Assembly: GCA_963924565.1 (NCBI GenBank)
Contig: OZ004610.1
Location: 34,906,001-34,970,000, forward strand
Length of the DNA stretch: 64,000 nucleotides
Direction: 5' to 3'
From: Ascidiella aspersa
Lineage: Eukaryota
Below the pieces are notes generated by a model. The model was not told where the DNA came from and searched no databases. It saw only the letters and a list, made by a program, of their open reading frames with translations. Position 1 is the first letter of the stretch. Each line of letters opens with the position of its first letter. The position numbers and the translations under genes were made by a program. Shown here one piece after another: positions 36,601 to 64,000 of the stretch.

Positions 36601-39600
36601 GGGTAGGTGGCGTATAACGGCAGGATCGGGGGTAGGTCGCATATAACGGCAGAATCGAGGGTAGGTGGCGTATAACGGCAGGATCGAGGGTAGGTTGCGT
36701 ATAACGGCAGGATCGGGGGTAGGTGGCGTATAACGGCAGGATCGAGGGTAGGTGGCGTATAACGGCAGGATCGGGGGTAGGTCGCGTATAACGGCAGGAT
36801 CGAGGGTAGGTGGCATATAACGGCAGAATCGAGGGTAGGTGGCGTATAACGGCAGGATCGAGGGTAGGTTGCGTATAACGGCAGGATCGGGGGTAGGTCG
36901 CATATAACGGCAGAATCGAGGGTAGGTGGCGTATAACGGCAGGATCGAGGGTAGGTGGCGTATAACGGCAGGATCGAGGGTAGGTGGCGTATAACGGCAG
37001 GATCGGGGGTAGGTCGCGTATAACGGCAGGATCGAGGGTAGGTGGCATATAACGGCAGAATCGAGGGTAGGTGGCGTATAACGGCAGGATCGAGGGTAGG
37101 TTGCGTATAACGGCAGGATCGGGGGTAGGTCGCATATAACGGCAGAATCGAGGGTAGGTGGCGTATAACGGCAGGATCGAGGGTAGGTTGCGTATAACGG
37201 CAGGATCGGGGGTAGGTCGCATATAACGGCAGAATCGAGGGTAGGTGGCGTATAACGGCAGGATCGGGGGTAGGTCGCGTATAACGGCAGGATCGGGGGT
37301 AGGTCGCATATAACGGCAGAATCGAGGGTAGGTGGCGTATAACGGCAGGATCGAGGGTAGGTTGCGTATAACGGCAGGATCGGGGGTAGGTCGCATATAA
37401 CGGCAGAATCGAGGGTAGGTGGCGTATAACGGCAGGATCGGGGGTAGGTGGCGTATAACGGCAGGATCGAGGGTAGGTTGCGTATAACGGCAGGATCGGG
37501 GGTAGGTCGCGTATAACGGCATGATCGAGGGTAGGTGGCGTATAACGGCAGGATCGGGGGTAGGTCGCGTATAACGGCAGGATCGAGGGTAGGTTGCGTA
37601 TAACGGCAGGATCGGGGGTAGGTCGCATATAACGGCAGAATCGAGGGTAGGTGGCGTATAACGGCAGGATCGAGGGTAGGTTGCGTATAACGGCAGGATC
37701 GGGGGTAGGTCGCATATAACGGCAGAATCGAGGGTAGGTGGCGTATAACGGCAGGATCGGGGGTAGGTCGCGTATAACGGCAGGATCGAGGGTAGGTGGC
37801 GTATAACGGCAGGATCGGGGGTAGGTCGCATATAACGGCAGGATCGAGGGTAGGTGGCGTATAACGGCAGGATCGAGGGTAGGTGGCGTATAACGGCAGG
37901 ATCGGGGGTAGGTCGCATATAACGGCAGGATCGAGGGTAGGTGGCGTATAACGGCAGGATCGAGGGTAGGTGGCGTATAACGGCAGGATCGGGGGTAGGT
38001 CGCATATAACGGCTGGATCGAGGGTAGGTGGCGTATAACGGCAGGATCGAGGGTAGGTGGCGTATAACGCCAGGATCGGGGGGGTAGGCGGCATATAACG
38101 GCAGGATCGAGGGTAGGTGGCGTATAACGGCAGGATCGGGGGTAGGTCGCGTATAACGGCAGGATCGAGGGTAGGTGGCGTATAGCGGCAGGATCGGGGG
38201 TAGGTGGCGTATAGCGGCAGGATCGGGGGTAGGTGGCGTATAACGCCAGGATCGGGGGTAGGCGGCATATAACGGCAGGATCGAGGGTAGGCGGCGTATA
38301 ACGGCAGTATCGGGGGTAGGTGGCGTATAACGGCAGGATCGAGGGTAGGTGGCGTATAACGCCAGGATCGGGGGTAGGTCGCGTATAACGGCAGTATCGG
38401 GGGTAGGTGGCGTATAACGGCAGGATCGGGGGTAGGTGGCGTATGATCGAGGGTAGGCGGCGTATAACGGCAGGATCGAGGGTAGGTGGCGTATAACGCC
38501 AGGATCGGGGGTAGGTGGCGTATAACGGCAGGATCGAGGGTAGGCGGCGTATAACGGCAGGATCGAGGGTAGGTCGCGTATAACGGCAGGATCGGGGGTA
38601 GGTGGCGTATAACGGCAGTATCGGGGGTAGGTGGCGTATGATCGAGGGTAGGCGGCGTATAACGGCAGGATCGAGGGTAGGTGGCGTATAACTCCAGGAT
38701 CGGGGGTAGGTGGCGTATAACGGCAGGATCGGGGGTAGGTGGCGTATAACGGCAGGATCGAGGGTAGGCGGCGTATAACGGCAGGATCGAGGGTAGGTCG
38801 CGTATAACGGCAGGATCGGGGGTAGGTGGTGCGTATAACGGCAGGATCGGGGTAGGTGGCGTATAACGAAAGGATCGGGGGTTGGTCGCGTATAACGCCA
38901 GGATCGAGGGTAGGTGGTGCGTATAACGCCAGGATCGGGGGTAGGTGGCGTATAACGGCAGGATCGGGGGTAGGTGGCGTATAACGACAGGATCGGGGGT
39001 AGGTCGCGTATAACGCCAGGATCGAGGGTAGGTGGTGCGTATAACGCCAGGATCGGGGGTAGGTGGCGTATAACGGCAGGATCGGGGTAGGTGGCGTATA
39101 ACGACAGGATCGGGGTAGGTGGCGTATAACGACAGGATCGGGGGTAGGTCGCGTATAACGGCATGATCGAGGGTAGGTGGCGTATAACGGTAGGATCGGG
39201 GGTAGGTGGCGTATAACGGCAGGATCGAGGGTAGGTGGCGTATAACGCCAGGATCGAGGGTAGGTGGTGCGTATAACGCCAGGATCGGGGGTAGGTGGCG
39301 TATAACGGCAGGATCGGGGGTAGGTGGCGTATAACGGCAGGATCGGGGGTAGGTGGCGTATAACGACAGGATCGGGGGTAGGTCGCGTATAACGCCAGGA
39401 TCGGGGGTAGGTCGCGTATAACGCCGGGATCTGGGATAGGTCGCATGTTGGACGGCCCAGTCGATTTTATTTGTTGTTTGTGTGCAGGTGTTCGCATGTT
39501 GGACGGCCCAGTCGATTTATTTGTTGTTTGTGTGCAGGTGTTCGCATGTTGGACGGCCCGGTTACTGACGCGGTTGAAGCAGCTTCGATTGGTTTGAAAC

Positions 39601-42600
39601 CGCAGAACGTTGACATCTACAGCGCATCTTGGGGACCGGACGATGATGGAAGAACTGTCGATGGACCGGCGAGATTAGCTAAGATCGCTTTTGAGGAAGG
39701 AGTTAAGTTGGTGAGTTTAACGAACTGAACAGTTCGCATTTAACAAAATGACTGGTAATTGTTGTGTTAAAAAAGTACTTGCCTTTATTACTCAAGTTGG
39801 GAAAGAGTTCAAATACGGAGTTGTCATAATTTTCACCTTCTGTGGAGTTGTGACGTCGTGTGTATTGTTTTTAATAATTAATGTGATTGGTTATTGCGCG
39901 CTACGTCGTGACTCATTATGATCCAGAACCTTTGTATTGAGTTGGTTTTAGTCGTGAATGCAAAATTATGTTGCTGGTGTCTGAAGTTAAAACACTACAT
40001 TTACCTGGATTCCCAATCAAAGCAACCCTTTCTATGTGCACTTGTGGTTATGTGCAGGGCCGCGGAGGTAGAGGCTCGATCTTCGTGTGGGCTTCAGGTA
40101 ACGGAGGGAGGCATGAGGACAACTGCAACTGCGATGGTTACACCAACAGCATATTCACCCTCTCCATCAGCAGCACGACTGAGAGTAAGAAGAAACCGTG
40201 GTACTCTGAGTCGTGCTCGTCCACCTTGGCAGCAACCTACAGCAGTGGAACCTTCGGCGAGAAGCAAGTGGTGAGTAAGTGAGGTGACACGTAACACGTA
40301 ACACTTACATCACAACAACTTGTGACGTGTACAGGTGACGACAGACCTACGTCACAGGTGCACCAACAAGCACACCGGCACCTCAGCGTCGGCTCCACTG
40401 GCCGGAGGGATATGCGCGCTGGCCCTGGAAGCGAAGTGAGTCACAACTCGTTGTTAATATTAATGCGGTATTTACTTGGTTTAAGTGATTCACAGCTTCG
40501 TTAGATTACGTCGCTCTACTTTGTTTCGTTGCCTCAGAATGATGGTTGAAATATTAATGTTGTTAATGTTGGCCGACTTAGACAACTTATGTGATGACTT
40601 CAACATCTTTATAAATATTTAAAATTCATTTAATGTTTCGACAAAACCCCGACCCCCCTACAACCACTGACCCCGATGCCCCCTAGCCCCGGTAACTCTG
40701 AATTTAGCACACAGTCTTTCCTCACGTCATCGGTTGTTACCTCATGACGTCATCACATGACGTAACCGTGTGCTTCCCTTTAGTGGTGACCTCACGTGGC
40801 GCGACATGCAGCACCTAGTGGTGAGAACTGCCAGGTCGGAAGGACTCGAGTCGGATTGGAAGACAAACGCCGTCGGGAGGCCTGGTGAGTGTGACGTCAC
40901 TATTGTAGCAATGTAAGGTGATTGTCACGCGTTTGTTTTGTCATAGTAAGTCACTCGTTCGGTTACGGTCTGATGGACGCGCTCGGGATGGTTGACATGG
41001 CAACCAACTGGACGCTTGTTCCTAAGCAACACATCTGCAACATTTCGGTGATTTCCCCTGAACAACCACCCCGAATATTCAGCTCGGGGAATACCCTAAG
41101 GGTGCCTGTCCTGGTAGGTGGTTCCCCGCTTCACCCGCGTGTGTGGGTTGCTTACCCCCAACTTGTGCTAACCCTGTTGTTGTTGCCCCAGGTTTCATCG
41201 TGTGACGACGGAGGGGTGATGGTGGATCGGCTGGAACATGTGCAAGCTGTCCTCACCCTCCGCAACCAACGCAGGGGCGACCTCACGATCACCCTAACTT
41301 CACCCCTCGGAACCCGATCGACCCTGCTCGGCAGAAGGTGAACATCGCAGCTTTGGTTCACTCGACCTTGAACTAATGTCTACTTGAACTAATTGCTGTT
41401 GATTTCAGACACAGCGATATGTCGACGCGGGGCTTCACCAAGTGGCCCTTTATGACGACACACTCGTGGGACGAAGACCCAAGGGGAACCTGGATTCTTG
41501 AGATTAAAGACTCCAACACCCCAACATCGGGTAAGTCCCTAACTTTCCCCAACATCGGGTAAGCCCCTAACTTCACCCAACATCGGGTAAGCCCCTAACT
41601 TCACCCAACATCGGGTAAGCCCCTAACTTCACCCAACATCGGGTAAGCCCCTAACTTCACCCAACATCGGGTAAGCCCCTAACTTCCCCCAACACCGGTA
41701 AGCCCCTAACTTCACCCAACATCGGTTAAGCCCCTAACTTCCCCCAACATCGGGTAAGCCCCTAACTTCCCCGAACATCGGGTAAGCCCCTAACTTCCCC
41801 AACATCGGGTAAGCCCCTAACTTCCCCCAACATCGGGTAAGCCCCTAACTTCACCCAACATCGGGTAAGCCCCTAACTTCACCCAACATCGGGTAAGCCC
41901 CTAACTTCACCCAACATCGGGTAAGCCCCTAACTTCACCCAACATCGGGTAAGCCCCTAACTTCCCCCAACATCGGGTAAGCCCCTAACTTCACCCAACA
42001 TCGGGTAAGCCCCTAACTTCACCCAACATCGGTTAAGCCCCTAACTTCCCCCAACATCGGTTAAGCCCCTAACTTCACCCAACATCGGTTAAGCCCCTAA
42101 CTTCACCCAACATCGGGTAAGCCCCTAACTTCCCCGAACATCGGGTAAGCCCCTAACTTCCCCAACATCGGGTAAGCCCCTAACTTCCCCCAACATCGGG
42201 TAAGCCCCTAACTTCACCCAACATCGGTTAAGCCCCTAACTTCACCCAACATCGGGTAAGCCCCTAACTTCCCCGAACATCGGGTAAGCCCCTAACTTCA
42301 CCCAACATCGGGTAAGCCCCTAACTTCCCCCAACATCGGGTAAGCCCCTAACTTCCCCCAACATCGGGTAAGCCCTTAACTTCCCCGAACATCGGGTAAG
42401 CCCCTAACTTCCCCAACATCGGTTAAGCCCCTAACTTCACCCAACATCGGGTAATCCCCAAACTTCCCCCAACATCGGGTAAGCCCCTAACTTCACCCAA
42501 CATCGGGGGTAGATACTTAAACGTCCATAGTAGGATTCTAAATCCAAGCGTTTTCAGAACGCTTCCTATTGGCTGGAATTTTATGACGTCACAGATATAA

Positions 42601-45600
42601 TTTTATGACGTAACAGACGATCAGCTGAACGGCCTACTAGATAATTTAGTTTTCTTATAGAAGAAAAATACCAAACGGGTATTTTGAACATATTTTTAAC
42701 TCTGATAATAGGACACGTCGAGCCGCTGCAATGCTGTCGTACCACATTTTCGTCCGGGGGCTTATATTGCTAACATTATTCGTGTTAGCGCTTGGGCTTA
42801 CGTGGGTCAAGTATTATTATATTTATTAATAATGTTTAACCAAACCAAAACCTAAACCAGTCCCTAACCAAAATAATATGCATTGTGGTGCGATTTTTAA
42901 TGAGGCTCTTTTAATTTATGCCTACATGTTGAAGCACATTTTGTTACTTGGTTAACCACAAAGAGCCGCGCACCTTACACACATGAAACAAAAAGAATAG
43001 CCTCTCCCTGTTATTTTTTTTATTTAATTTGTTTGCGTGTATCGTGTTTCAAAAGTATTGTTAAAGAAACGTTGGCCTTAAGGCAAACAGACTAACTCGG
43101 AACCGGCAATAATCCACACCATAAAGTTGACCAAACGAAATCGAAACATTCTAAAAAATCATATTTGCAACATGAACGGAAGAGCCGTACACAACTGGGT
43201 TAAAAGCCGCATGTGGCGACCCCTGATATATATATTCTAGAAACAACTGTTTTCACAAAAAATGTATTTGTTTTTAAATGTGCACATACCTAACATATGC
43301 ATTGACCATGCTTTCTTTATTACACCAAAAATTGACAACACTAGATAAGGAGACTTACGTATTAAAAAAACAGAAAAAATCACAAAAAACACTTCACAGA
43401 TTAAATAAAAATGACTTTAAACTTTGCATACACATTCTCCGGCTTATGTGAATTTGCAATTAATATGATTAAAATTAAACTGTAATATTTGAAATAATTC
43501 ATTTAAAATCAGTTTCAGTAATTCAGGCTGTGATGCAAGCAACATCTAGCCATGACATGAGGCTTGCATCCAAGATCTTGGCTCAACAGGGACAGTCACT
43601 TTTTCACCTGAGCTACATAGGGCTCCATGGGAACGGGTTAAGGAACAACCATACCACATTGCCTGTTCCCTTCTGTTACATTTACAACTCCATTGAAGAT
43701 CATCTAAAAGACTATTCATAGCATGTTAAACCTAGTTAGTTATAAATAGAAATGCCTATCAAATTAAGAAAGTTGAAATAAAATGCATTAGAACACAAAA
43801 TAAATATTATGTATACAACAACATCATAGTTTAGTTTTCACCCCTTTAGGTCGTAACCAAACGGTAAAGTGCATTCTTACAATTTGAATCCTAATTGCTT
43901 TAATGTCATTCATGTTATGGACCAACAAATCAATATTTACCATTAAAAAACTTATAACATTCTGGATTTGAAACTACCATTTAATAATACCTCTGGTATT
44001 CTACTTTGAACATCCCATTCCTATCAATCAGGCATTTTTTTTAAATGAAATTTACTGTTTAGGACTTTAGGATCTTAAATATATAATTTAGATTTTAGAT
44101 GTTTCTTTAGATTATTATAAAAAAATGTTGTGTAATCTAAAATTGTGGCAGATTTAATGTCAAGGATAATTATTTTAGTAATTTCTTAAGTTTAAAATTT
44201 TTGCTAATTGAAAAACAATTAATTAGTGAGTTAATAAATCAAGATTTCCATAACTGGTCCATATTCAGTAAAATGTTTTTTAAAACAGCAAATCTAAAGC
44301 TTAAGGCAAAACCCGTTATGTCCAAGCGTATTAAATATTTTCAAAAATAGTTTTTAGATTTCTTTATAATAAATCTAGATGTTTTTGATTTAATTTATTA
44401 TCGTTAAAAAAATGGTAACTATGATTGAAACAGTACACACCAACTGTACACAAGCAGAAAATCCTTCTTAGTTTGTTGCACTTTAATCATACTCAAAAAT
44501 TGCTAATTAAGATCTTAATGAAAATCAGAAAATGAGGCAAAAATTGTAAGTGTTGTAGATATTGCACCAAAGTGCCAACTTAAAATACAATCAAGTCAAT
44601 CAGTCTTATATAGCTAATCCTGAGGTGTGTTTAACAATCACTGGGTAAAGTTGTGTGCTTCAATTAGCCTACTTAGACCACCACAACAGATTCATAATCA
44701 ACTAATTCTAACCTAAAGGAAAGTGGCACGCCGCCTGGTAAATAATACAAAGTTTGTCACACAATTGCAGATTTGATCATCCTATTTATTCAAGTTGTAT
44801 GATATTTGCAATCAGGAAACTGCAGGCTATTGTTACTAAAATGGCAGCTAGAAATGAGTAAAAGGCAGCCAAAAAAAATTGCCAATTAAGTTGGTTGTTC
44901 AAACGCACATGACAAAAATATTTATGTTTTAATAAATAATAAACAAAACGAAGTTATTAAGTTTAGTACGTATACCCTGCATAGTTGCGTACGGTCATTT
45001 AAGCAGACTGTACGCAATTTTTTTGTAATGGCCTGTTTTGGCTTTGCACACCTGCATTCACACATTGGTCAAGTTTAAACACACTTGAACTAATTTTTGA
45101 GACATATACTGCTAACGCTTGTTTTTTAACATAACAGTGGTGTGGTTATTTTGCGCTTCTTTTACGGCGTAAAATTCAAAACGGTGTCAAAGTATTTACC
45201 CATAAGCCAATTAATTTTCTCCTATTTACCGACACGACAATAAACGATGTTTTGACTTTTTATTTTTCGTCAAGTACTACAGTACATTTGCGCTTAATAA
45301 GAATCTATTACGTCATAAAATTTCAGCCAATAGGAAGCGTTCTGAAAACGCTTGGATTTGGAATCCTACTATGGACGTTTAAGTATCTACCAACATCGGG
45401 TAAGCCCCTAACTTCCCCCAACATCGGGTAAGCCCCTAACTTCCCCCAACATCGGGTAAGCCCCTAACTTCACCCAACATCGGGTAAGCCCCTAACTTCA
45501 CCCAACATCGGGTAAGCCCCTAACTTCACCCAACATCGGGTAAGCCCCTAACTTCACCCAACATCGGGTAAGCCCCTAACTTCACCCAACATCAGGTAAG

Positions 45601-47329
45601 CCCCTAACCCTAACCCAACATCGGGTAAACCCCTAACTTCACCCAACATCGGGTAAGCCCCTAACTTCCCCCAACATCGGGTAAGCCCCTAACTTCCCCC
45701 AACATCGGGTAAGCCCCTAACTTCACCCAACATCGGGTAAGCCCCTAACTTCACCCAACATCGGGTAAGCCCCTAACTTCACCCAACATCGGGTAAGCCC
45801 CTAACTTCCCCCAACATCGGGTAAGCCCCTAACTTCCCCCAACATCGGGTAAGCCCCTAACTTCACCCAACATCGGGTAAGGCCCTAACTTCACCCAACA
45901 TCGGGTAAGCCCCCAACTTCATCCAACATCGGGTAAGCCCCAGCGCTGTACATACAAGGTGTAGTGAGATATAGCATCGATCACAGCAAGCTTTTCCTTG
46001 TAGGAACTCTTTCTGGTTTCAACTTGATCCTCCACGGTACAGTGAAGTCCGACTGGGGAATCCCCACACCAAAGGACGTCCAGCTTCCCGATGAAGCAAC
46101 AGATTCACCACAGGTTGCAACATTTTAACCACTTTAACACTTAGTTCTACAAAGTTTCAAATTCGATGTTTTTTGCAGCAAGTTGAGCCGACAGCGCCCC
46201 CGAGTGTCGCCACCACCCCCAGTCCTTCAGGTAACTTCCATTGTTCCTTCCTTTGTTCCTTCCTTTCACATTTTACTTTTTCAATAACACAGCTGTTAGC
46301 TTCGCAGTTAGAGTAACAAGCAAAACTTATTTCATCACAACGAGCTAACAGCACGCTATGACGCAACAATGGGGTAGACTAAATAAAATTACATGTGTTT
46401 AAATCATTGATGTGACCGTATATGGGTCAAAATGCCAAAGACCCCGATAAAATCAAACACATACGATGTTTAAATGTTGGTGTGATGCTGCACGATTGTG
46501 ACGTAACACTACTTTCTATTCAGCTCACGTTGTCGAGAATTGCGAGATCGAACTTTCATCGGAGCCTGGATGTTTGGGTGAGCATTTGCTTGTTGTTGTT
46601 GTTTTATTGTTGCTTAATTTTGTTATTGTTGTTGTTGTTGCTGTAATGTTGTTGCCGCCCGCAACTGCAGCAACCACAAACTTGTGCCTCGATGTTGTGG
46701 TCGTTGTACTTTCGGCCGCTCACTAACTCCCCTCCAGTAATTTGTTTCTTTTTGGCTTTTCTCCTCACGTCCTGACGTCAACCACAACTGATGACGTCAC
46801 AGTGTGTTCCGCTGGTTTCGCGCTGAGTGGATCGAAGTGCGTGGCGAGCTGCGAGGTCGGCCACTACGCGGTGCAAGAGGGCGGTGGCCTGGTGTGCCGG
46901 GGATGCCCCTCATTCTGTCACAGCTGCGCCGGGTCACGCTTCATTGATTGCGTACAATGCGTGTCTGGGGCCAGGATGGGGGAGGGGAACAGGTGCTTCC
47001 CCCCGGAACCCCCGCCCACACCCACCAGGGTCTACTACATGGTCGCGGTCTCCATCCTAGCGCTCGCCTTCCTTTGTTGCGCAATAATATTCGTCATCAA
47101 CAAACGACGCAGCGCCTCTAGCGGAGACGCGTACAAATACATCCCGTCGGAAGATGGCGCTATTTCGAGGCTTATAAACGACTCGGGTTTGGAATATTAC
47201 GATGACCTTGACGAGTACGAGGACAATCCTGTCAAGGTCGCCACCGGGGGACGCACCAAGCGTAAGAATGGCCACGTGGTTCGGACTTCGGGGAAATCCC
47301 CTTTGCTCGACCACGAGGGTGGTTTCTAG
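30667..47329 (+). CDS. furin: furin-like proprotein convertase (S8B), 16 coding exons
   Basis: Exons 30667-30867, 30971-31075, 33605-33715, 34812-34940, 36002-36167, 39538-39710, 40058-40270, 40335-40435, 40784-40884, 40947-41113, 41192-41337, 41409-41530, 46004-46113, 46179-46230, 46524-46577, 46803-47329 splice in frame. Features: RRKR propeptide site, ILDDG (Asp), HGTRCAG (His), ASGNGG (oxyanion Asn), TGTSAS (Ser), P domain with RRGDL, Cys-rich region, TM helix, and a tail with YKYI and an acidic cluster. Exact PCSK orthology was not tested. Confidence 0.93.
31382..31556. mobile_element. near-perfect foldback (arms about 80 bp) with degenerate hammerhead-like cores, in furin intron 2
   Basis: GTAATAAGAATATCAAAGCCCATACAGAAGTAGGTATCATTTTGAACGTTTCGAAT... 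is mirrored by its reverse complement ending GATATTCTTATTAC. Related copies lie at 9468-9577 and about 648-715. Confidence 0.8.
34941..35917 (+). repeat. G-rich 21-22-bp minisatellite (about 45 copies) filling furin intron 4
   Basis: Unit GTGGGGTAAAGTAGGGGG(G)T. It starts directly at the GTAAGT donor. Confidence 0.95.
36143..39446 (+). repeat. 29-bp minisatellite (about 113 copies) made of the furin exon 5 end plus donor site
   Basis: Unit GCGTATAACGGCAGGATCG(A/G)GG|GTAGGT(G/C). The first copy is the coding sequence AYNARIG plus the real donor at 36168. Confidence 0.97.
39441..39559 (+). repeat. 50-51-bp tandem duplication of the furin intron 5 acceptor and exon 6 start
   Basis: TCGCATGTTGGACGGCCC occurs at 39441, 39492 and 39542. 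TTGTTGTTTGTGTGCAG|GTG ends at 39487 and 39537. Confidence 0.92.
41521..45940 (+). repeat. 28-bp minisatellite (about 35 + 20 copies) made of the furin exon 12 end plus donor, split by a transposon
   Basis: Unit CCCAACATCGG|GTAAGCCCCTAACTTC(A/C). Blocks at 41521-42507 and 45392-45940. Confidence 0.96.
42508..45391. mobile_element. non-autonomous Mutator-like (MULE) DNA transposon, 2.9 kb
   Basis: About 85-bp TIRs beginning GGTAGATACTTAAACGTCCATAGTAGGATTC, with few mismatches. 9-bp duplication AACATCGGG at 42499-42507 and 45392-45400. AT-rich interior with no transposase ORF. Confidence 0.82.
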
Positions 47330-50203: not shown

Positions 50204-53200
50204 ATGGGTTGCATGAACAGCAAGACAACAGCAGTGAGCGCTGCCCCAGTTAAGAAAGCTACTAATGGAACAAGTGAGATGACAGCAACTGTGAAACCGA
50301 CTCCCAGGAAAGAATCGCCTCAAACACAAACCAAAGTCGAGCAAGGTGCGTTGCTAGGGGTTAGCTGGGGGTGCGTTGCTAGGGGTAAGGTATTGAAAAT
50401 TGGCAACCTTTAGATAAATTTGCATTTTCCTTAAACATTACTTTGACAATTGCGTGTTCAACGCAAAATAATTTTTATACAATTTAAATAAATGTTTTAA
50501 ATTTTAGTGAAACCAGTCGCGGAAGAAAACAACGCATCTTCAACAGAAAGTAAGAAAAAATACCAGAGCTATTGCTTAGCGCTCTCGTCTATGTTTGTGT
50601 GTGTATGCGTGTGTTCGTATATATGTGTGTGTGGTTGGCCTAAGTTTAGATTTAACGAACTGAAGTTTATACTGTGCCGCGGTTTTTGGCTGTTAGCTTT
50701 AATTTTAATTCCCACCTAACACTTAACATAGACAAAGTGAGGTAATAATGGGATGTTATAGGCATGCAATATTGCCTCGCTCACACGAAACGGTTAACAT
50801 TAAACTGCGCCATAAATATTTCATCTTAGATGTCTTGGTCCATGTTTACTTTTCCTTAGAACCGCTCCAACCCATAACGAGCCTTTAAACTGAGAAGTTC
50901 AATATTTAACCAACTCAACAAGAAGTTGTGTTTGCTCTCGTGTTATAAAATGTTAAATACTCCGTGTTATTTGATGATTCCATGCTTGCTATGGGCGTTT
51001 GTGCTATGTCTGTGTGTCCAAGGTGTAGCTGCTTCGCGCCCCTAATAGTGACGTCACACTGCGTATTTCACGCTAACCTTACGTTGGTGGACGGATTGGC
51101 GACCCACAGCCTGGACGTTGAAATACAGCCACACTGTCCACTGGTTTTCAACGAAAAGTTGATCAATATCTTGGCGAGTAAAGCCGACTCTTCGGCATTA
51201 ATGACGTCACTACGTCCCACTGGAGGCGCTGTTGTTATGAGTTATTTTGACGACGAAGGGAACCTGATATTTCGAGCTGTCAGTTGTAACTTGATTCTGC
51301 GGTAGGCCGGTCTTGTCCCGCCAACCTCTCAACACAAAAGCGCTCGTTAATTGAAGCTGGATGTTCGTTGGTGACGATTCGTGGTAAATGCCCACTCAAG
51401 GGTCTTCTGGCTAAAGTCGCTTGTCGATGTTGCGGTGAAACAAAAAGTTCCTGCGTTGGGGAAATTATATTAAATCATATTAAGCTAACGGCAAATGAAT
51501 ATGGGCCTCGCTAATTTGTTGATTTACGTAACTACATAACAAGGTTTACCGATTTTCATTGAGTTGTGTTTGGTTGAGCTATAGGCTTACTTGCAGCCGC
51601 CACTTTGTGAAGCGGGCTTATGTTTGCCAGGACGTACAATCCCGGCGAGAATGTTGGCTCAGCAAACAACTCAGAGTTCAAACGCAAATATCCCAAAGTT
51701 GGCCTGATTGCTATGACAACACCTGCCTACGCCAATAGAAGCAAGTTGTGCGAAAGTGAATGCGATAAACCTGGTGGAAATTTATTTGCTCAAGTGGAAC
51801 CATCCACGCACTATTCTGATCATTAACTCGTCTCATTTAAAGATAAATGGTTCAAGTTTTGCTCGAGTAATTAAAAGATGTAAACCGGCTTGTTTATATT
51901 TTTAGCTGGAGAACAAACCACGACGTCAGCAACAGAACCAGGTCAGTAAGCTGAACTGGAAATGTTCCCACAACCGCCTTATGTTTTTACTTTTTCGTTG
52001 TAGGCTACGGTTTATTACAAACTTATGTGAACAGGGCTGGTTAGTTTGTATTGAGCGACAAGTGGAGTGGTGGTAAACAAATCATAAACACCTACTGGTT
52101 ATTTATTAAAAATCTTCTTTAATAATAACAAATGACACTTATATTTTCAGAACCCGAAAAACCAGTCGAAGAAAGTAAACCTGAACCCGAAAAGACCCCA
52201 ACACGTGAGTGACCTTTAGTAACCCCTTAAAAGTTATTTCCAGTGTATCCCTGCTCCTTCCTTTCCGAAACCAATAAGCAAAGACTGATAAATAATTTAT
52301 TATCTGTTTGTAATTTCCTGCTTTGAGTAAAGTTTACACAAATATTCACAAACACCGGTTAGACGCTGAATTTCTAAACATCCAAATAAATATTTCAATC
52401 AAACAAACAAAACTGTTATTTTATCAACCAACTTCGAGGACACGTTTTAATTTGCTAAATAAAACATAAATCCAGATAATTCCTTTTTAAATTTAAATTA
52501 GGAACACTATATAGGGATCTGTTCATAAGTTTAATCGTGAAAATAACTGCCCAAATAGACGTTAAAAGCGACATGCTTTATCATCACTGATGATGGCATT
52601 AGAAATTGCCGAAACGTTTGAAAATAAAGCATGTCGCTTTTAACGTCTATTTGGGCCGTTATTTTCACCATTAAATTTAAATTAGTTTAAAATTTTGCCC
52701 CCACTAACTCTTTTGCGCCACCTGCCGGAAGTAATGTTATTTTAATTTCTATGAACCAGCTCCGGAAGAGGATAAACCGGAACCGGAAGTAAAGGTTCCC
52801 ACGCCCGAACCGGAACCGGAAGTAACCCAAGAGGAATCGCAAGGTGAGGCGGAAGCGACGTAGGTTGTCACGTGATTGCTTGAAGCTTGCTGATTGGTTG
52901 AGGCGATTCACACTTTGGAAATGGCCCGAAATTCAAAAATCATTCCGCCCGTAATTTGAAAAGAACCTAAACCCACGATAAATAAAAGGCAATTTTTTAT
53001 TAACCCTGCCAGCTGTTGTACGTTTTCTGGGGTGAAATAAATAAATATTTAGTGATGCACGGAAACGTGTGAATGTAACTGGTCACATGGTTTTAAACCA
53101 ATAACCGTCTCTCTATAAAAAAAAAAAAAGAAAAAAGAGGAAAGCGAACTGGTCCTAATGACCGCACCCTAATGTTGATTTGTATTTGTAACTTTAGAAA

Positions 53201-55472
53201 TTTGTCTGATTTTCGTTGATTTTGTGAGTAGTTGTTTATAGTTTTCCAATCAGCACGGTTTTGTAGCCATTTTGATTCTAGCAGAAGAGTTCTCAAGGTT
53301 AATAGTTCGAATCCCACTTATTCAATCTACTGAATAATCTGAATCTGCACACACACTGTCTATGAATCTGCACACACACTGTCTATGAATCTGCACACAC
53401 ACTGTCTATGAATCTGCACACACACTGTCTATGAATCTACAACACACACTGTCTATGCACTGCTTGGCAACATTTAGAAAGCATAGAGCTGGTTGAGAGC
53501 GACGCACAAACGCATGCGAACAGTTAGTCGAAACTTAAGCAGATGATGTCACACAGAAGCAACACAGACAACGGAAGCGGTCCAAGAGCAAGCAGAGATC
53601 TCATACAACAGTGAGCCCTCCCAACAAACTGAACCTACCCAACAAACTGAGACCGTAGATCAGAATAACCAAGGTTAAATGGCATGGATATGTTTCATGG
53701 CTGGCTCGTGTCTATGTTTTTTGCGAAAAAGTAAAATCGGCATTATTTATTGTCATTATAATTAATCAGTTTTAACATAACATTCAAGTTAATAAGTTAT
53801 TATTTACTGCTCAGCGTGGTTTGGGTTAATTACGTAATGAGGTACACCATAGTGACGTCATGCATTTGAAATATTGGTATAATGACGTCACGAATTGTTC
53901 AGACTCTTTGAAAGTGGAGCCTTCTGTTAGCGAACAAACGTGTGATCAGAACAATGAACAAACGACTGAAACAGGTGCAAACAATGACGTTTGTTGACGT
54001 CACAATACTTCAGTCACTGAGTTTTGTAGCACTTTGTGTTGTTGGAATGTTTGTCATAACCTTAACGGTGTTTTTGCTCGTTTTTACTTACTTTTTGAAA
54101 TATATACTGACAAAAGCACTTTATTGCGTCAATCACACATTAAAATATATTAAATGTAACACAGAAATTTTGTCGGAATAACCGACAAAGAACAATCATC
54201 AAAGTTACTCCACATTTATTATTCAGTTTTTTTATTTTATTGCTAAACTAACAGCACGAAAGGGCGCATGTTTACCCTTGCTGAGAAACCCGGTATGCGC
54301 TATACCTTGCTTACGTGTATGACGTCATGACTTGCTAACACGCATGACATCACATATATGATGTGTTAACTTGTATGACGTGTTTGTTGCAGAAACAAGC
54401 AAACCTGAAGTGACAGAACAAGAAGAAGCTGCCACAGGTGAGAAAATAGAAATGTCATGGGTTATTGGAGGTCACTGGGTTATTGAAGGTCATGGGGTTA
54501 CTGTATGTCATAGGGTAATTTTTGAATGTACTTAGTCAAAATAGGCCAATAGCACGGTTTGGGAGGCCATGGCAACGTGCACTAGTAGGCAGTGTGGTAA
54601 CGGACGTTCTCCTCTAACCCGTGAAACTGACGACCGCCAGTGATTCGAATGAATGGTTAAGAACCACTTAGATATAGGGTTTAGTGTGGCCTGTGTCAAC
54701 TTGAAATAAATTTTGCCTCATTTCTATAAACGACCATCAAATTGTTTCATATTCTTTTTATAAAACGTATTGCAGTAGTAGTCTTGTGTTGGTTTGTGGA
54801 AGTGCTTGAAGGTTGGCAACATTCCTTAGTGGCTTGTGTTGTAAGCACTTACAAGCACCCGCCAACACTTAACACACACTCAACGAATCCTGCTTACAAT
54901 TAAGCCCTAACCTGGGTCAACAATCTTAGCGCGGGTCGTAAGTGGACAAGCCAAGACAACAAGGCCGCAACAAGCTTTGGCTGATTGCATTATAACCCAC
55001 TCACCGTTTTACCACCAACGTTCAAGGCTTTAAAATAGGAAACTTTTAAAAGCAGTGACCTTTATACAAATTTATTTGAAATTTAAGCGACGTTTTTTGT
55101 TTTAGCTGAAGAAGCGGAAGGACCAACTGCCAACGATGCAGTCGCCGAATCAGCGCCTGACGCAGGTGAACTAACTTTAAACTAGCTTCGTTTGTGGTGG
55201 GGACGAATGGAAACGGCGTACCCATCATGTTTGTATTCACGTGATCACCACAACTAGTTGTTAACAACAATTGCATTTCACGTATTCGATGAGTGATTGT
55301 CGTCCTTTGTTATCTAACAATGCTTGCTTGTTTTACAGGGGACGGCGGCGATGGTTCCGGGGGTACAGGAGATGGGGGTGCAGGTTCCGGGGGTGCAGGG
55401 GATGGGGGTGCAGGTTCCGGTGGTGCAGGGGATGGGGGTGCAGGAGGTTCAGGGGGAGACGGTGGTGCCTAA
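50204..55472 (+). CDS. orphan acidic, disordered protein with N-terminal MGC acylation motif (about 261 aa), 10 exons
   Basis: Exons 50204-50345, 50508-50549, 51906-51941, 52151-52204, 52760-52843, 53557-53673, 53903-53974, 54393-54437, 55106-55165, 55339-55472. All are bounded by AG/GT, all introns are phase 1, and they join into a stop-free E/P/T/Q/A-rich frame ending in (GDGGAGSGGA)-type repeats and TAA. Confidence 0.75.
52527..52678 (+). ncRNA. type I hammerhead ribozyme (minimal, Penelope/retrozyme-type) closed by a stem I of about 60 bp
   Basis: CTGATGA at 52587-52593, then T, stem II GGCA/TGCC, GAAA at 52611-52614 and CGTT (predicted cut after 52618). Stem I TCA/TGA continues into the long flanking inverted repeat. 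Confidence 0.72.
53340..53457 (+). repeat. 23-bp tandem repeat (about 5 copies), probably a SINE tail
   Basis: Unit TGAATCTGCACACACACTGTCTA, directly after a B-box-like AGTTCGAATCCCA at about 53304. Confidence 0.85.
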
Positions 55473-59246: not shown

Positions 59247-62200
59247 TGTTGTGGAACGCAACCGCGCCATTCCCGAGCACGCGGCTCGAGGCATTCTTGT
59301 GTTATTTTAATTGCTATGCGTTGTTTGTGTGTACGCGCTTGATTTGTGCCTACTGCAGGAATGTAATTGGTGTGTTTGTAATTACTTCGTAAGCCTATAA
59401 AAGGCTGTTCACTTACTACTACGTTACCATTCCATTTTACTGATTTCGACTGAATACAACTTAAGTTACAACAAACTGTGCTTATTTGGACTCTGTAAAG
59501 AAGCAAGGCGCAAACGTGATTGAAAACACAACAGAGTTTTTGGCGACGAGGATGGGATCGGTCAACTGAACAACTTGTTTCAATCTCAACGTTTGTGTCA
59601 ATATGGAGAAGCTATTGGAGACGATGCAGAAGCAGATGAAACAGCAACAACGACAGCATGAAGAGCAAATGAATCTTATCCTATCTGTGTTGGAAAAGTC
59701 ATCTGGTCCCGCTGTTACCAATTCTAATGTTGCTGCACCTAGCTTTAACCCTTTTGATTCTACGACAGAATTGTGGGATGACTACTGGTCTCGCTTCTCA
59801 ACATTTGTGAAGGCTCATGCAATATCCGAGAAGAGGGTTGCCCAAGTGTTTTTAACGAACCAAACCACGACAACTTACAAGCTGCTGTCCAATTTAGCAG
59901 GACAAAGTTCGCCAGCGAAAGACGTCAACGATCTAACAATGAATGAGATTGAAGGCTTCATGAAAGATCAATTTGATCCCAAGCGTTTTATTATTCGCGA
60001 AAGGTTTCGGTTTTGGAGCAACATGCAGCGCAAGCCAGGTGAAACGGTGCAAGAATTAGCCGCCCGTATTCGTCACGATGCTGCTACTTGCGATTTCACC
60101 TCTATCAAAGATCCGTTGGATGAAGCTTTACGAACCAGGTTCATCTGTTCAATATCCAATGAAGCGGTGTTGAAGGCCATGTTCAAACTCAAGTCAGATG
60201 AACTTACTTTCTCTCGTGCGATTGAGGTTGCCATGCAGACGGAGGATGCGGCGCAAGTTGCCAAGGAAACCGTCTATGGGACGAGCGGTTCTGTGCGTAA
60301 GGTGCGCGGATCCAAGAAGCCGTTTACAAAATCCGCACCGAATGAGAAGCCCAAAGAAGCTGCCCGATGTTATCGCTGTGGGAAAACTGGTCATTTTGCG
60401 CCGGTTTGCCGTCACAAGAATGCGACGTGTCGATATTGCAATCGTATAGGTCATACTGAAGATGCTTGCCGTAAGAAGAAGTCCGATGTGGTCAATTCGA
60501 TGACGAATGTTCATTTGCTGAAGTCAATTTCCACTCGTTCCCCACTACACAAGTTGAAGGTTGTGGTGTCACTTTTTGGCAAATTTTGCGAATTTGAGCT
60601 GGATACAGCAACCAGTGGAAATTTCTTGTCTGTCCACGATTGGAAGAGAATCGGGTCGCCTAAGCTTCGCGCTCCTGATCGACGTTTTAATTCTGCGACA
60701 GAGCACCCAGTGCCTTTGTTGGGTATGTTTACGACGCCAACTACTTATGGTGGTCGAGTCTTTGATCAAGATTTCTTTGTCACGAAAGTTCCATGCTTAA
60801 ATTTGCTTGGTCGCAATGCCATATGTTCTTTGGAGATTTCGGTTGACGACATACTGCATCATTCATCTTCCAAAGATTGCGTGAATTCCGTTGTTACTTC
60901 GGGCGATCAACTCTATCTGCCTTTACAAGATGCTTGCCGAGGTCTTTGCAACGAGTTTAAAGACATTTTCAAACCTGAACTGGGTTGCTTGAAAGGTTTA
61001 GAGCTTGAAGTGAAGTTTCAAGCGGAGGCTAAACCGGTTTTCTTTAAGCACCGTTCTGTGCCATTTGCGCTTCAAGAAGATGTTGCCCGTGAATATGACG
61101 CAGGAATTGCCCGAGGAATCTGGACTCCAGTCAAGTTCAATGACTGGGGTACACCGGTGGTTCCTGTTCGAAAAGCACCGTTGTCAACACACAACAGGCC
61201 ACGGCTAAGACTTTGCGGGGATTATTCAGCCACGGTAAATCCCCAATTGGCACTCCATCGACATCCACTACCTCTTCCAGATACTTTGATGCAGAAACTT
61301 CGAGGAGGATTTGGTTTCACAAAGATCGATCTTGCTGATGCATACAACCAAATACGTCTAGGTCCTGAAAGCCGGAAAAGGTTGGCGTTGAGCACTCACC
61401 GAGGTGTCTTGCTGCAAAATGTATTACCGTTTGGCATCACCTCGGCTCCGGGATACTTTCAACAGATTATGGACGAACTGACGCAAGATCTTCCAGGAGT
61501 GGCTGTATATCTTGATGATTTACTTGTCAGCGGTTCATCGGCAAAAGATCACTTAAACAATCTCCGTCAATTGCTTCAACGTTTAAGTGAGAAGGGGCTT
61601 CGCTGTCGTTTCGAGAAATGCAAGTTTGCACAACCCACAGTTGAATACTTGGGTCATTTACTTCATAAAGACGGCATCAGGAAAGCTTCCAAACTCGATG
61701 CTGTGCTCAATATGCCTGCACCCAAAAACGCATCGGCACTACGTTCGTTTCTTGGGTCGGTTCAATTTTATAGTAAATTTTTGCCACCAAGTTTTTCTTC
61801 CATTGCTGAACCTCTGTATCGTCTGACTCGAGACAAAGTTCTTTGGAGTTGGAATAACGAAGAATCAAAAGCTTTCCGTCAATTGAAGACATGGCTGTCT
61901 TCTGACAATGTTTTAACTTACTTTGATCCCTCTCTTCCTATTGGGATATCTTGTGATGCGTCAAATGTGGGCATTGGTGCCGTACTTTTTCATCGCTATT
62001 CGGACGGAAGCGAAAGGCCAATTGCAAATGTCTCAAAGTTGCTCTCCTCCAGTCAGCGCAACTACAGCCAAATTCAAAAAGAGGCTCTTTCAATTATCTT
62101 CGCACTGAAGAAATTTTACCAGTATCTTTTTGGTCGTGAATTCATTCTTGTCACCGACCACAAGCCACTGTTGGCACTTTTTGGTCCTACAAAGCCAACT

Positions 62201-64000
62201 CCTCCACTTGCGGCAAATCGGTTAGCACGATGGGCGCTTTTCCTTGGTCAGTTTAAATACAAAATCGAGTACAGGAAGACCGCCAGTCACCAGAACGCCG
62301 ATGCACTCAGCCGGTTACCAGAAGGGGAAGATGCCTATTTTGACAAAGAGGAAACTACAGATGATGTCGACACTGTTTGCACCATCACTACGCTAAGTCG
62401 TCAAGTCCAGCCCACAGACCCTAACACCATGAAGAAGGAATCCGGAAAAGATGATGTTCTTTCCCGAGTCATGCGTTTTGTCCAACACGGTTGGCCAACA
62501 ACTTTTTCCTCAAATGACCCAGCTGCAAAGTTTCGCAGGTCTGCTGATTTATTGACAGTTTCTCATGGTTGTCTGTTCTATGGAACTCGATTGGTTATTC
62601 CGCAAAAGCTACGACAGCACGTCCTACAACTACTACACCAAGGTCACTTTGGCATCCAAAGGATGAAGCAGTTGGCTAGGTCTGCAGTGTACTGGCCGAA
62701 CATTGATGACGATATTCTGAATCTTTGCCGAAAATGTTCCATTTGCGGAGAACAGCAAAACCTTCCTACTAAACCTTCTGTCCATCCATGGATGATTCCT
62801 GAAAAACCATGGAGTCGTGTTCACATCGACCATGCTGTGAATTTCTTGGGGAGCAATTGGTTGCTCATGATCGACGCCTATTCCAAGTACCCGTGCATTC
62901 ATGCTACTTCATTGATGACGTCCAAGGCGACCATGAACTTGCTCGAAGAAGACTTTGCACATTTTGGTTATCCACACACTATCGTCTCAGATAACGCGCA
63001 GGCTTTTGTTTCTGCCGAGTTCCAGGATTTCTGCCGGCAGAGGGGTATTGTTCATCTAACGGGTGCGCCTTACCACCCGTCCACAAATGGCGCCGCCGAA
63101 CGGCTAGTTCAAACGTTCAAAAAGGCAATGAAGAAGTCAGAGAAACCCCCGAAAGAAGCTTTACAGGAGTTTCTTCTTCAGTATCGAAGAACCCCAAATT
63201 CTAGCGGTTTCTCCCCGAGCGAGCTACTTAACGCTCGACAAATTCGATCGCTCATAGACACGATGGTACCATCACCTACACATGTCTTGCAACGCCAGCA
63301 ACAAAATTCCGTGTCGAAGAACAACAAACCAGTGCGTATTAGTTTTCGAAATGGTGATCCATGTTACGCGCAATATTTTGGATCTAGACACGATGGTTCG
63401 AAAAGATGGGTTCCTGCCACTATTGTTAAATGCTGTGGGAGTAGAACATTTAACGTGAGAGTATTTCCTCGTGGTCCAATCTGGAGACGTCACCTTGACC
63501 AACTTCGCCCTAGATACCCTAATGAAGACGATGACCCGGGTGAGCCTGAACTTTCATGTCCGTCAGAGCATATTCCCCTGGTCCCGTCCACTCATATACC
63601 GGCATCATCCTCACCTACTCCTCCAGATTCCCCGAGGTTTGGTCCCGACAATCCCCGTCGCTCGAAGAGACAACGTCTACAGCCGAGGAGGTTCGGCTAC
63701 GGTGTTCTGGGTGGACAATAATTTAAAAGGGGAGGTGTTGTGGAACGCAACCGCGCCATTCCCGAGCACGCGGCTCGAGGCATTCTTGTGTTATTTTAAT
63801 TGCTATGCGTTGTTTGTGTGTACGCGCTTGATTTGTGCCTACTGCAGGAATGTAATTGGTGTGTTTGTAATTACTTCGTAAGCCTATAAAAGGCTGTTCA
63901 CTTACTACTACGTTACCATTCCATTTTACTGATTTCGACTGAATACAACTTAAGTTACAACAAACTGTGCTTATTTGGACTCTGTAAAGAAGCAAGGCGC
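59247..64000 (+). mobile_element. Ty3/Gypsy LTR retrotransposon (Mag-like), apparently intact; 3' LTR runs off the window
   Basis: 5' LTR 59247-59533 (TGTTGT...ACAACA). PBS TGGCGACGAGGATGGGAT at 59541. PPT AAAAGGGGAGG at 63725-63735. 3' LTR starts at 63736 and appears identical to the 5' LTR over the 265 bp visible. Confidence 0.97.
59603..63721 (+). CDS. Gag-Pol polyprotein, 1372 aa (Gag with two CCHC knuckles, protease, RT, RNase H, integrase)
   Basis: CYRCGKTGHFAPVC and CRYCNRIGHTEDAC; LDTATS protease; LPFG and YLDD RT; CDAS/TDHKPL RNase H; H-H-C-C plus HID/SDN/AER integrase. Domain order is Gypsy-type. Confidence 0.97.
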   Translation: MEKLLETMQKQMKQQQRQHEEQMNLILSVLEKSSGPAVTNSNVAAPSFNPFDSTTELWDDYWSRFSTFVKAHAISEKRVAQVFLTNQTTTTYKLLSNLAGQSSPAKDVNDLTMNEIEGFMKDQFDPKRFIIRERFRFWSNMQRKPGETVQELAARIRHDAATCDFTSIKDPLDEALRTRFICSISNEAVLKAMFKLKSDELTFSRAIEVAMQTEDAAQVAKETVYGTSGSVRKVRGSKKPFTKSAPNEKPKEAARCYRCGKTGHFAPVCRHKNATCRYCNRIGHTEDACRKKKSDVVNSMTNVHLLKSISTRSPLHKLKVVVSLFGKFCEFELDTATSGNFLSVHDWKRIGSPKLRAPDRRFNSATEHPVPLLGMFTTPTTYGGRVFDQDFFVTKVPCLNLLGRNAICSLEISVDDILHHSSSKDCVNSVVTSGDQLYLPLQDACRGLCNEFKDIFKPELGCLKGLELEVKFQAEAKPVFFKHRSVPFALQEDVAREYDAGIARGIWTPVKFNDWGTPVVPVRKAPLSTHNRPRLRLCGDYSATVNPQLALHRHPLPLPDTLMQKLRGGFGFTKIDLADAYNQIRLGPESRKRLALSTHRGVLLQNVLPFGITSAPGYFQQIMDELTQDLPGVAVYLDDLLVSGSSAKDHLNNLRQLLQRLSEKGLRCRFEKCKFAQPTVEYLGHLLHKDGIRKASKLDAVLNMPAPKNASALRSFLGSVQFYSKFLPPSFSSIAEPLYRLTRDKVLWSWNNEESKAFRQLKTWLSSDNVLTYFDPSLPIGISCDASNVGIGAVLFHRYSDGSERPIANVSKLLSSSQRNYSQIQKEALSIIFALKKFYQYLFGREFILVTDHKPLLALFGPTKPTPPLAANRLARWALFLGQFKYKIEYRKTASHQNADALSRLPEGEDAYFDKEETTDDVDTVCTITTLSRQVQPTDPNTMKKESGKDDVLSRVMRFVQHGWPTTFSSNDPAAKFRRSADLLTVSHGCLFYGTRLVIPQKLRQHVLQLLHQGHFGIQRMKQLARSAVYWPNIDDDILNLCRKCSICGEQQNLPTKPSVHPWMIPEKPWSRVHIDHAVNFLGSNWLLMIDAYSKYPCIHATSLMTSKATMNLLEEDFAHFGYPHTIVSDNAQAFVSAEFQDFCRQRGIVHLTGAPYHPSTNGAAERLVQTFKKAMKKSEKPPKEALQEFLLQYRRTPNSSGFSPSELLNARQIRSLIDTMVPSPTHVLQRQQQNSVSKNNKPVRISFRNGDPCYAQYFGSRHDGSKRWVPATIVKCCGSRTFNVRVFPRGPIWRRHLDQLRPRYPNEDDDPGEPELSCPSEHIPLVPSTHIPASSSPTPPDSPRFGPDNPRRSKRQRLQPRRFGYGVLGGQ

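What the first reader, a model, noticed from the sequence alone, without database searches (positions are those of the whole stretch)
52527..52678. Intact-core hammerhead ribozyme capping a 60-bp hairpin, in sense orientation in an intron
Seen: the loop of a long inverted repeat is a type I hammerhead: CUGAUGA-U-[GGCA..UGCC]-GAAAC-GUU. Its stem I (UCA/UGA) is continuous with the inverted repeat arms. AATAAA follows the cleavage site. Established: minimal type I hammerheads with a palindromic AACGUU stem III occur in Penelope-like element pLTRs and retrozymes and typically cleave as dimers; Penelope insertions often carry an inverted terminal copy. Inference: the inversion has given the ribozyme an unusually long stem I. 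Lying between micro-exons 4 and 5 of the host gene, it could cut the pre-mRNA or yield small RNAs.
Basis: partly seen in the sequence, partly recalled or inferred. Interest (0 to 1): 0.72.

Follow-up and report, generated by a model that had tools for sequence, protein, structure and literature searches.

The report
Short Penelope retrotransposon stub with hammerhead
The hairpin is one of hundreds of short, head-to-head leftovers of a Penelope-type jumping gene; it sits in an intron that is spliced out, and the ribozyme letters in its loop are predicted to be misfolded and likely do not cut the host RNA.

Summary
The hairpin and the minimal type I hammerhead core at 52587-52618 are real. The core is in sense orientation in intron 52205-52759 of a spliced gene.

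It is a 184-bp Penelope-like (PLE) insertion: an inverted tail-bearing copy joined to a direct copy of the terminal repeat, with a 13-bp target duplication. The genome holds 279 exact core matches; longer copies run into GIY-YIG and RT coding sequence.

The Penelope link is supported; the proposed function is not. Stem I is native and parted from the long arms by a 2x2 loop. The monomer has no stem III and is predicted to mispair its core, and the active dimer needs the 61-bp arms swapped between molecules.

The more interesting signal is family-wide. In 26 of 62 copies the 5' end lies 1-9 nt before the core, about 30 nt after a TATA box. Eleven of 12 copies starting at -6 carry an extra G, likely run-off copies of uncleaved transcript.

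This scan reported such stubs, and the pile-up of ends, in other genomes before. Ordinary element, modest mechanistic clue.

The parts
52489..52501 (.). Target-site duplication, left copy (13 bp)
   Evidence: Identical 13-mer at 52489 and 52673; 43 of 62 family loci have a flanking repeat of 8 nt or more, mode 12, against 4 of 62 control pairs
52502..52581 (-). Inverted, 5'-truncated copy of the element's 3' end, carrying the tail (left hairpin arm; about 52502-52525 has no partner in the right arm)
   Evidence: 3 mismatches in 81 nt against the direct, tail-bearing copy L036; spans +38 to +119 relative to hammerhead C3
52582..52582 (+). Single junction base (C) between the two copies, not explained by either arm
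52583..52675 (+). Direct copy of the Penelope terminal repeat, from -4 (the commonest 5' end of the family) to the short 3' end at +88
   Evidence: 0 mismatches in 93 nt against L036
52584..52621 (+). Minimal type I hammerhead: 3-bp stem I, core, extra U, 4-bp stem II, palindromic ACGU in place of helix III; predicted cut after 52618
   Evidence: Sequence; core invariant and stems covarying across 9 motifs from several PLE-type families of this genome
52631..52675 (+). First 15 codons of the Penelope ORF (inferred start ATG at 52631), preceded by AATAAA at 52623-52628
   Evidence: tblastn of the sister family's 848-aa ORF hits the left arm (14 of 25 identical, E 9e-5) and the core-to-start region (E 0.009); translation
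52673..52685 (.). Target-site duplication, right copy (overlaps the last 3 nt of the direct copy)
52205..52759 (+). Host intron containing the insertion, between 54-nt and 84-nt micro-exons
   Evidence: Joint 52204 to 52760, GT..AG, depth 205 in run X3; exon borders

Best explanation
This is a 184-bp insertion of a Penelope-like retrotransposon's terminal repeat, made of two short copies joined head to head and flanked by a 13-bp target duplication; its hammerhead is a passenger that is predicted to be inactive in the host intron. Shown: family membership, layout, target duplication, splicing of the intron in one run. Inferred mechanism: the element's RT-endonuclease nicked both strands of an AT-rich target about 13 bp apart and primed two cDNAs at the two neighbouring start sites (+88 and about +120) of an uncleaved element RNA. 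One cDNA likely ran off the RNA's 5' end at -4, about 30 nt downstream of the pLTR TATA box; the other stopped at +38; the two were end-joined. When the host gene is transcribed the two copies fold into a long hairpin that is removed with the intron; if anything acts on it, double-strand-RNA enzymes are likelier than self-cleavage.
For: 279 exact core matches (137 forward, 142 reverse, 0 for the control pattern) and 390 exact tail matches. Four longer copies (L073, L075, L078, L084) continue upstream into GIY-YIG-type coding sequence; L151 carries broken RT and EN sequence 43-56% identical to the sister family's open 848-aa ORF over the long blocks and matches the window copy at 94-96%; that ORF hits Pfam RVT_1, E 1.6e-9. 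46 of 62 tail-selected loci have an inverted arm; in 42 of those 46 exactly one arm has the tail (my count; p 2.6e-9 against independent choice). 26 of 62 long arms start at -9..-1, against 0-5 in each other 9-nt window from -54 to +62. 11 of 12 copies starting at -6 have a non-native G before it (p 6e-7) and 11 of 22 at -4 (p 0.016). TATA-like boxes at -34 to -39 in 6 of 7 reference copies from four families; ends also cluster just upstream of the core in two other families (5 of 22 at -10..-6; 13 of 28 at -12..-6). Folding: core mispaired, P(core unpaired) 0.014; active dimer -170.7 against -174.8 kcal/mol for two monomers. Core in scattered copies decays like the flank (13 of 451 against 14 of 736 positions, p 0.32). 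RNA reads of family copies cross the cut site in hammerhead-sense orientation (22 sense, 30 antisense, p 0.33) with no pile-up of ends.
Against: No cleavage assay was possible; the anole PLE hammerhead cleaves only with the element's protein (PMC11167929), so protein-assisted cutting here is not excluded. The X4 reads at the hairpin come largely from other copies (97% run on unlike the window), only about 6% of that run was read, and ordinary RNA-seq is poor at showing cut ends. X3's genotype at the insertion is unknown. The window copy itself has C, not G, before -4. The extra G is not seen in family 3 (0 of 13 ends at -12..-6) and is ambiguous in family 2; because the -6 and -4 ends are palindromic, a short fold-back gives the same G, and a T precedes that G in 8 of 11 and 7 of 11 cases. 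Some G's at -4 can be read as part of the inverted arm. No start site was mapped in RNA. No intact master copy of this exact family was found among 16 matches. Pfam did not recognise the GIY-YIG domain; it is identified by motif (recalled) and by similarity to the sister ORF.
Confidence: 0.88

Rival explanations
1. The long arms hold the hammerhead in a cleavage-competent state (alone, as a dimer, or helped by the Penelope protein), so it cuts the host pre-mRNA and affects splicing or 3'-end formation.
For: Core intact and in sense orientation; hammerhead-like monomer fold is only 2.4 kcal/mol above the minimum; protein-assisted cleavage is published for a PLE hammerhead (PMC11167929).
Against: No helix III possible in a monomer; dimer needs exchange of 61-bp arms; single minimal hammerheads were inactive (PMC4209133); intron spliced at depth 205 in X3; no excess conservation of the core in genomic copies; no sense depletion across the cut site.
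Confidence: 0.06
2. The hairpin matters as double-stranded RNA: it is edited by ADAR or diced into small RNAs that could silence the family.
For: 33-bp perfect helix inside 61-bp arms. At L151 position 6963 (window 52643) A>G appears in 7 of 50 sense and 0 of 34 antisense X4 reads and in 8 X3 contigs, against 1 of 221 genomic arms.
Against: Reads are pooled over the family and come from other individuals; no matched DNA, so allelic or copy differences can mimic editing. The second site (6969) lies inside my search anchor, so its genomic count is biased. No small-RNA data. Rfam miRNA hits are far below cut-off (28.4 against 99 bits). This can be true together with the best explanation.
Confidence: 0.25
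3. The short copies are a separate non-autonomous family (retrozyme or MITE-like hairpin element) that spreads as a unit.
For: Hundreds of short copies, many with similar length and a shared 5' end; only 16 matches to the endonuclease-coding region.
Against: The junction between arms differs from copy to copy; 5' ends grade continuously into the ORF; the tail sits on either arm; no two same-strand matches lie within 1 kb among the first 100 listed of 279 and of 390, so no tandem array was seen.
Confidence: 0.05

Closest known systems
Inverted-pLTR insertions of endonuclease-bearing Penelope-like elements (PMC8557442, PMC3846280; passages seen)
   Same: 5'-truncated inverted copy next to a direct copy, 30-40-bp tail at one end only, target duplication, pLTR that includes the first codons of the ORF, TATA box and Inr-like sequence in the pLTR.
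   Different: Very short: only the last 93 nt and 81 nt are present; target duplication 13 bp against 8-10 bp in the rotifer examples; no intact master of this family found in the assembly.
Minimal type I hammerheads of metazoan PLEs (PMC4209133; results and discussion read)
   Same: No helix III, palindromic 15.2-16.2, extra base between 9 and 10.1, G10.1-C11.1 pair, thousands of single or opposite-strand motifs per genome, predicted dimer requirement.
   Different: Stem II is 4 bp and stem I 3 bp here (7-8 and 4-5 bp in the Schistosoma motifs); this copy is enclosed by a 61-bp inverted repeat.
Poseidon element PAc of the green anole (PMC11167929; main text read)
   Same: Two reverse-transcription start sites bounding the tail, AT-rich targets cut on both strands, hammerhead at the ORF start, insertion from uncleaved RNA.
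   Different: That study did not describe a pile-up of 5' ends at the hammerhead's edge or an added G in the part I read; here the inferred start codon lies after the cut site.
Metazoan non-LTR retrozymes (bioRxiv 10.64898/2026.07.22.740005; first part and passages seen)
   Same: Type I hammerhead derived from a PLE terminal repeat, non-coding.
   Different: Retrozymes are tandem direct repeats with two or more hammerheads; this is a solo, inverted stub.

Membership tests
EN+ Penelope-like element (pLTR-derived insertion) | Same repeat lies directly downstream of an RT plus C-terminal GIY-YIG ORF | tested here: met
   RVT_1 hit on the sister ORF; GIY-YIG by motif and similarity only, no Pfam hit
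EN+ Penelope-like element (pLTR-derived insertion) | Inverted 5'-truncated copy adjacent to the direct copy | tested here: met
   Window copy and 46 of 62 loci
EN+ Penelope-like element (pLTR-derived insertion) | 30-40-bp tail on one end only | tested here: met
   33 nt between the two 3' ends; 42 of 46 two-armed loci
EN+ Penelope-like element (pLTR-derived insertion) | Target-site duplication | tested here: met
   13 bp here; 43 of 62 against 4 of 62 controls
EN+ Penelope-like element (pLTR-derived insertion) | Clade (Penelope/Poseidon, Neptune, Nematis) by RT phylogeny | not tested
   No tree built; the sister ORF shows no obvious extra zinc-finger linker, which would fit Penelope/Poseidon (by eye)
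Minimal type I hammerhead | Core CUGANGA / GAAA / UH, G10.1-C11.1, extra base after A9, palindromic 15.2-16.2 | tested here: met
Minimal type I hammerhead | Stems I and II supported by compensatory changes | tested here: met
   9 motifs, 96.8% of cells paired, 5 of 7 pairs with changes on both sides, 0 of 500 shuffles reach the covariation score; slid controls 8-48% paired. Sequences are related and were found with core-based patterns.
Minimal type I hammerhead | Self-cleavage at the predicted site | not testable with these tools
   Folding argues against it for this copy; no pile-up of read ends
Non-LTR retrozyme | Tandem direct repeats with two or more hammerheads | tested here: not met
   Single core in the insertion; no same-strand neighbours within 1 kb among the first 100 listed matches
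MITE (non-autonomous DNA transposon) | Fixed termini and fixed internal structure shared by copies | tested here: not met
   Junctions and arm lengths vary; tail on either arm
Domesticated intronic hammerhead (RECK type, PMC6155905 passages) | Conserved at the orthologous site across species | not testable with these tools
   No related genomes are held; the copy is young (0 of 93 and 3 of 81 differences from a sibling)
microRNA precursor | Match to a curated family | tested here: not met
   mir-3618 28.4 bits against cut-off 99

The most novel reading that the evidence does not exclude
The short stubs record the Penelope copying reaction: a capped transcript starts at the first bases of hammerhead stem I, a protein dimer primes both target strands at the two start sites of one uncleaved RNA, and the longer cDNA runs off the 5' end and copies the cap as an extra base, giving head-to-head hairpins with the tail on exactly one arm. 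The hammerhead would then sit at the very 5' end of the mRNA.
Probability: 0.4. Interest if true: 0.5.

Novelty: new member of a known kind. Interest (0 to 1): 0.2.

Why it matters
As a host regulatory ribozyme it most likely does not matter: it is one of hundreds of like stubs. If it did cut the pre-mRNA, every sense-oriented intronic copy would be a potential gene switch, but the evidence points the other way. The family's junction statistics are more useful. How Penelope elements make inverted repeats and one-sided tails, and what their hammerhead is for, are open questions, and the pile-up of 5' ends at a TATA-defined position with an added G gives predictions that cap mapping and the existing in vitro system can test.

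Tried and rejected
Rfam scan of the whole window: no hammerhead model at E <= 1. Loose core pattern: at chance level in the window. Pfam on the endonuclease C-terminal part: no family; PDB sequence search with the sister ORF: 0 matches.

Idea that the family is a fixed 275-nt SINE-like unit (several copies seemed to begin at one place): rejected, longer copies continue into the ORF. Idea that short arms come from cleaved RNA starting at +32: no clear peak (2 of 62 long arms and 2 of 46 inverted arms end at +32). A stop caused by a splice or trans-splice acceptor: no AG at the native -7 position. Cap-like G in two other families: not replicated in family 3, ambiguous in family 2.

No RNA holder was listed by the index (no evidence either way); X4 was added by species label, and X3 behaves as RNA because it shows spliced joints. 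No empty-site allele was listed in X1 or X2 (contigs cannot show absence).

Rows dropped before counts: overlapping loci were merged (60 to 42; 30 to 22 and 30 to 28; 8 of 30 tail loci merged and already-held or tandem-duplicated sites skipped). L196 and L197 are duplicates kept in the 62, and L156's arms were assigned the wrong way round by the script. The 102 rows pool loci chosen by different searches.

Literature searches for a prior report of the 5' pile-up, an added G or twin priming in PLEs listed nothing that states it in title or abstract start; most listed papers were not opened, the library lacks most subscription journals, and no supplements were read. The paper on dimeric PLE hammerhead variants (recalled) is not held. 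Look-up of earlier findings by sequence gave nothing.

Full report
1. The observation. The inverted repeat is there: 61-nt arms, 92% complementary, folding at z = -13.4. Its loop holds every core base of a minimal type I hammerhead at 52587-52618, with a 4-bp stem II, an extra U after A9, and ACGU in place of helix III. The core pattern alone is not unusual in this window (4 matches, 4.75 expected) and Rfam gave no hammerhead hit. Across 9 such motifs from several repeat families of this genome the core is invariant except one U-to-C change at position 7 and changes at 17, while stems I and II change in compensating pairs, so the motif class is real. Stem I is not strictly continuous with the arms: a 2x2 loop intervenes. 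The host gene runs on the + strand, and a contig of run X3 joins 52204 to 52760 with GT..AG ends, so the hammerhead is in sense in that intron.

2. What it is. The stretch is a dispersed repeat of this 308.6-Mb genome: 922 candidates in a DNA search, of which 40 were scored, 279 exact core matches and 390 exact tail matches. Longer copies extend upstream through a 3' untranslated region into GIY-YIG-type coding sequence, and locus L151 holds broken RT and endonuclease sequence next to the same terminal repeat. A sister family with a nearly identical hammerhead has an open 848-aa frame with an RT domain, and its N-terminus is similar to the translation of the hairpin arms. So the arms are the first codons of a Penelope ORF, and the AATAAA precedes its inferred start codon at 52631. 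The window insertion is 52502-52685: an inverted copy with the tail, one extra base, a direct copy from -4 to +88 (C3 = 0), and a 13-bp target duplication. It differs from a sibling at 0 of 93 and 3 of 81 positions, so it is young. This layout is the family's norm: 46 of 62 tail-selected loci have an inverted arm, 43 of 62 have a target duplication of 8 nt or more against 4 of 62 controls, and 31 of 41 core-spanning copies have an intact core. No intact master of this exact family was found among 16 matches to its endonuclease region.

3. Does it cut? Probably not. A monomer cannot close helix III. The predicted minimum pairs GAUG of the core with CGUU, leaving the core fully unpaired 1.4% of the time. 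In the active dimer stem I forms between molecules, so the 61-bp arms must be exchanged, and that form scores -170.7 against -174.8 kcal/mol for two monomers before any concentration penalty. A native leader without the inverted arm misfolds the same way and its active dimer is also unfavourable in this model, so the energy model does not separate active from inactive contexts well; the kinetic argument is inference. Published single minimal motifs showed no cleavage and dimers little (PMC4209133, results and discussion read); the anole motif cut only with protein and was not needed for insertion (PMC11167929, main text read). In scattered copies the core decays like its flank (13 of 451 against 14 of 736, p 0.32). 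Family RNA reads cross the cut site in both orientations (22 sense, 30 antisense) without a pile-up of ends, but they are pooled over copies, about 6% of one run, and insensitive to cut ends. A>G changes confined to sense reads at one arm position (7 of 50 against 0 of 34; 1 of 221 genomic arms) hint at editing of family hairpins; without matched DNA this is a lead only.

4. How such stubs likely form. In 42 of 46 two-armed loci exactly one arm carries the 33-nt tail. This fits priming of both target strands at the two neighbouring start sites shown in vitro for the anole element; that both use one RNA is my inference. The 5' ends are not random: 26 of 62 lie at -9..-1, against 0-5 in the other 9-nt windows, mostly at the pyrimidine-A steps -6 and -4, about 30 nt after a TATA box at -35/-37. 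Two other families show clusters just upstream of their cores. Eleven of 12 copies starting at -6 and 11 of 22 at -4 have a G before the first base. Copying of a cap as an extra G is recalled from L1 work, not from a call. A short fold-back on the palindromic end would give the same G, the G is missing in family 3, and the window copy has C there. I give about 0.7 to run-off at a transcription start and about 0.5 to the cap as the source of the G.

5. Comparison with what is known. Inverted truncated copies, the one-sided tail, target duplications and TATA/Inr motifs in the terminal repeat are described for Penelope elements (PMC8557442, PMC3846280; passages seen); D. virilis Penelope instead has a TATA-less internal promoter (PMC2377424; passages seen). 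Minimal hammerheads in such repeats, including opposite-strand pairs and solo copies, are described in PMC4209133. It fails the tandem-repeat test for retrozymes (bioRxiv 10.64898/2026.07.22.740005; first part and passages seen) and the fixed-structure test for MITEs, and nothing suggests a domesticated intronic ribozyme (PMC6155905; passages seen), though no related genome was available. No supplements were read; they may hold close consensus matches. Earlier notes of this scan (seen after I had written down my reading) describe the same kind of stub and the same pile-up of ends in other genomes, and pointed me to PMC3846280; they are unchecked AI notes. Searches did not list a paper stating the 5' pile-up or the added G for these elements.

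6. Verdict. Observation confirmed, origin confirmed, proposed host-cutting role unlikely. New member of a known kind; interest 0.2, with the junction statistics as the part worth keeping.

Noticed in passing
window 31385-31560: A second head-to-head insertion of Penelope type from another family, with two opposite-strand minimal hammerhead cores of the U3-A8 variant (31477 on +, 31457 on -) and an apparent target duplication.
   Followed up: partly
window 50204-55471 (+): Host gene of micro-exons encoding an acidic, Pro/Glu/Thr-rich protein of about 200 aa that starts MGC, resembling a lipid-anchor signal (recalled); five joints seen in run X3, later exons picked by eye. An exon-like stretch near 53283 is skipped in the X3 contig.
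   Followed up: partly
window 52214-52445: Run X1 shows a 230-bp deletion allele in the same intron, upstream of the insertion.
   Followed up: no
window 19592-19700 (-): U5 snRNA match, 54 bits, above cut-off.
   Followed up: no
window 59570-63721 (+): Open 1383-codon frame that looks like a Gypsy-type LTR retrotransposon gag-pol, by eye.
   Followed up: no
window 34700-39700: Long G-skewed tandem arrays with open frames over 1100 codons on the minus strand.
   Followed up: no
window 40922-47329 (+): Exon-like frames resembling a furin-type proprotein convertase, by eye.
   Followed up: no
L133:1723-4269 (-); L111-L114: Sister Penelope family with an open 848-aa frame whose reading frame runs through the hammerhead core; another family occurs as a tandem array with a 2671-bp period.
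   Followed up: partly
L255-L284: A third hammerhead-bearing family is more abundant, with 858 exact tail matches.
   Followed up: partly
L005, L038, L050, L211: Short repeated snippets of the element's first bases stacked at the 5' junction, suggesting repeated re-priming at the RNA end.
   Followed up: partly
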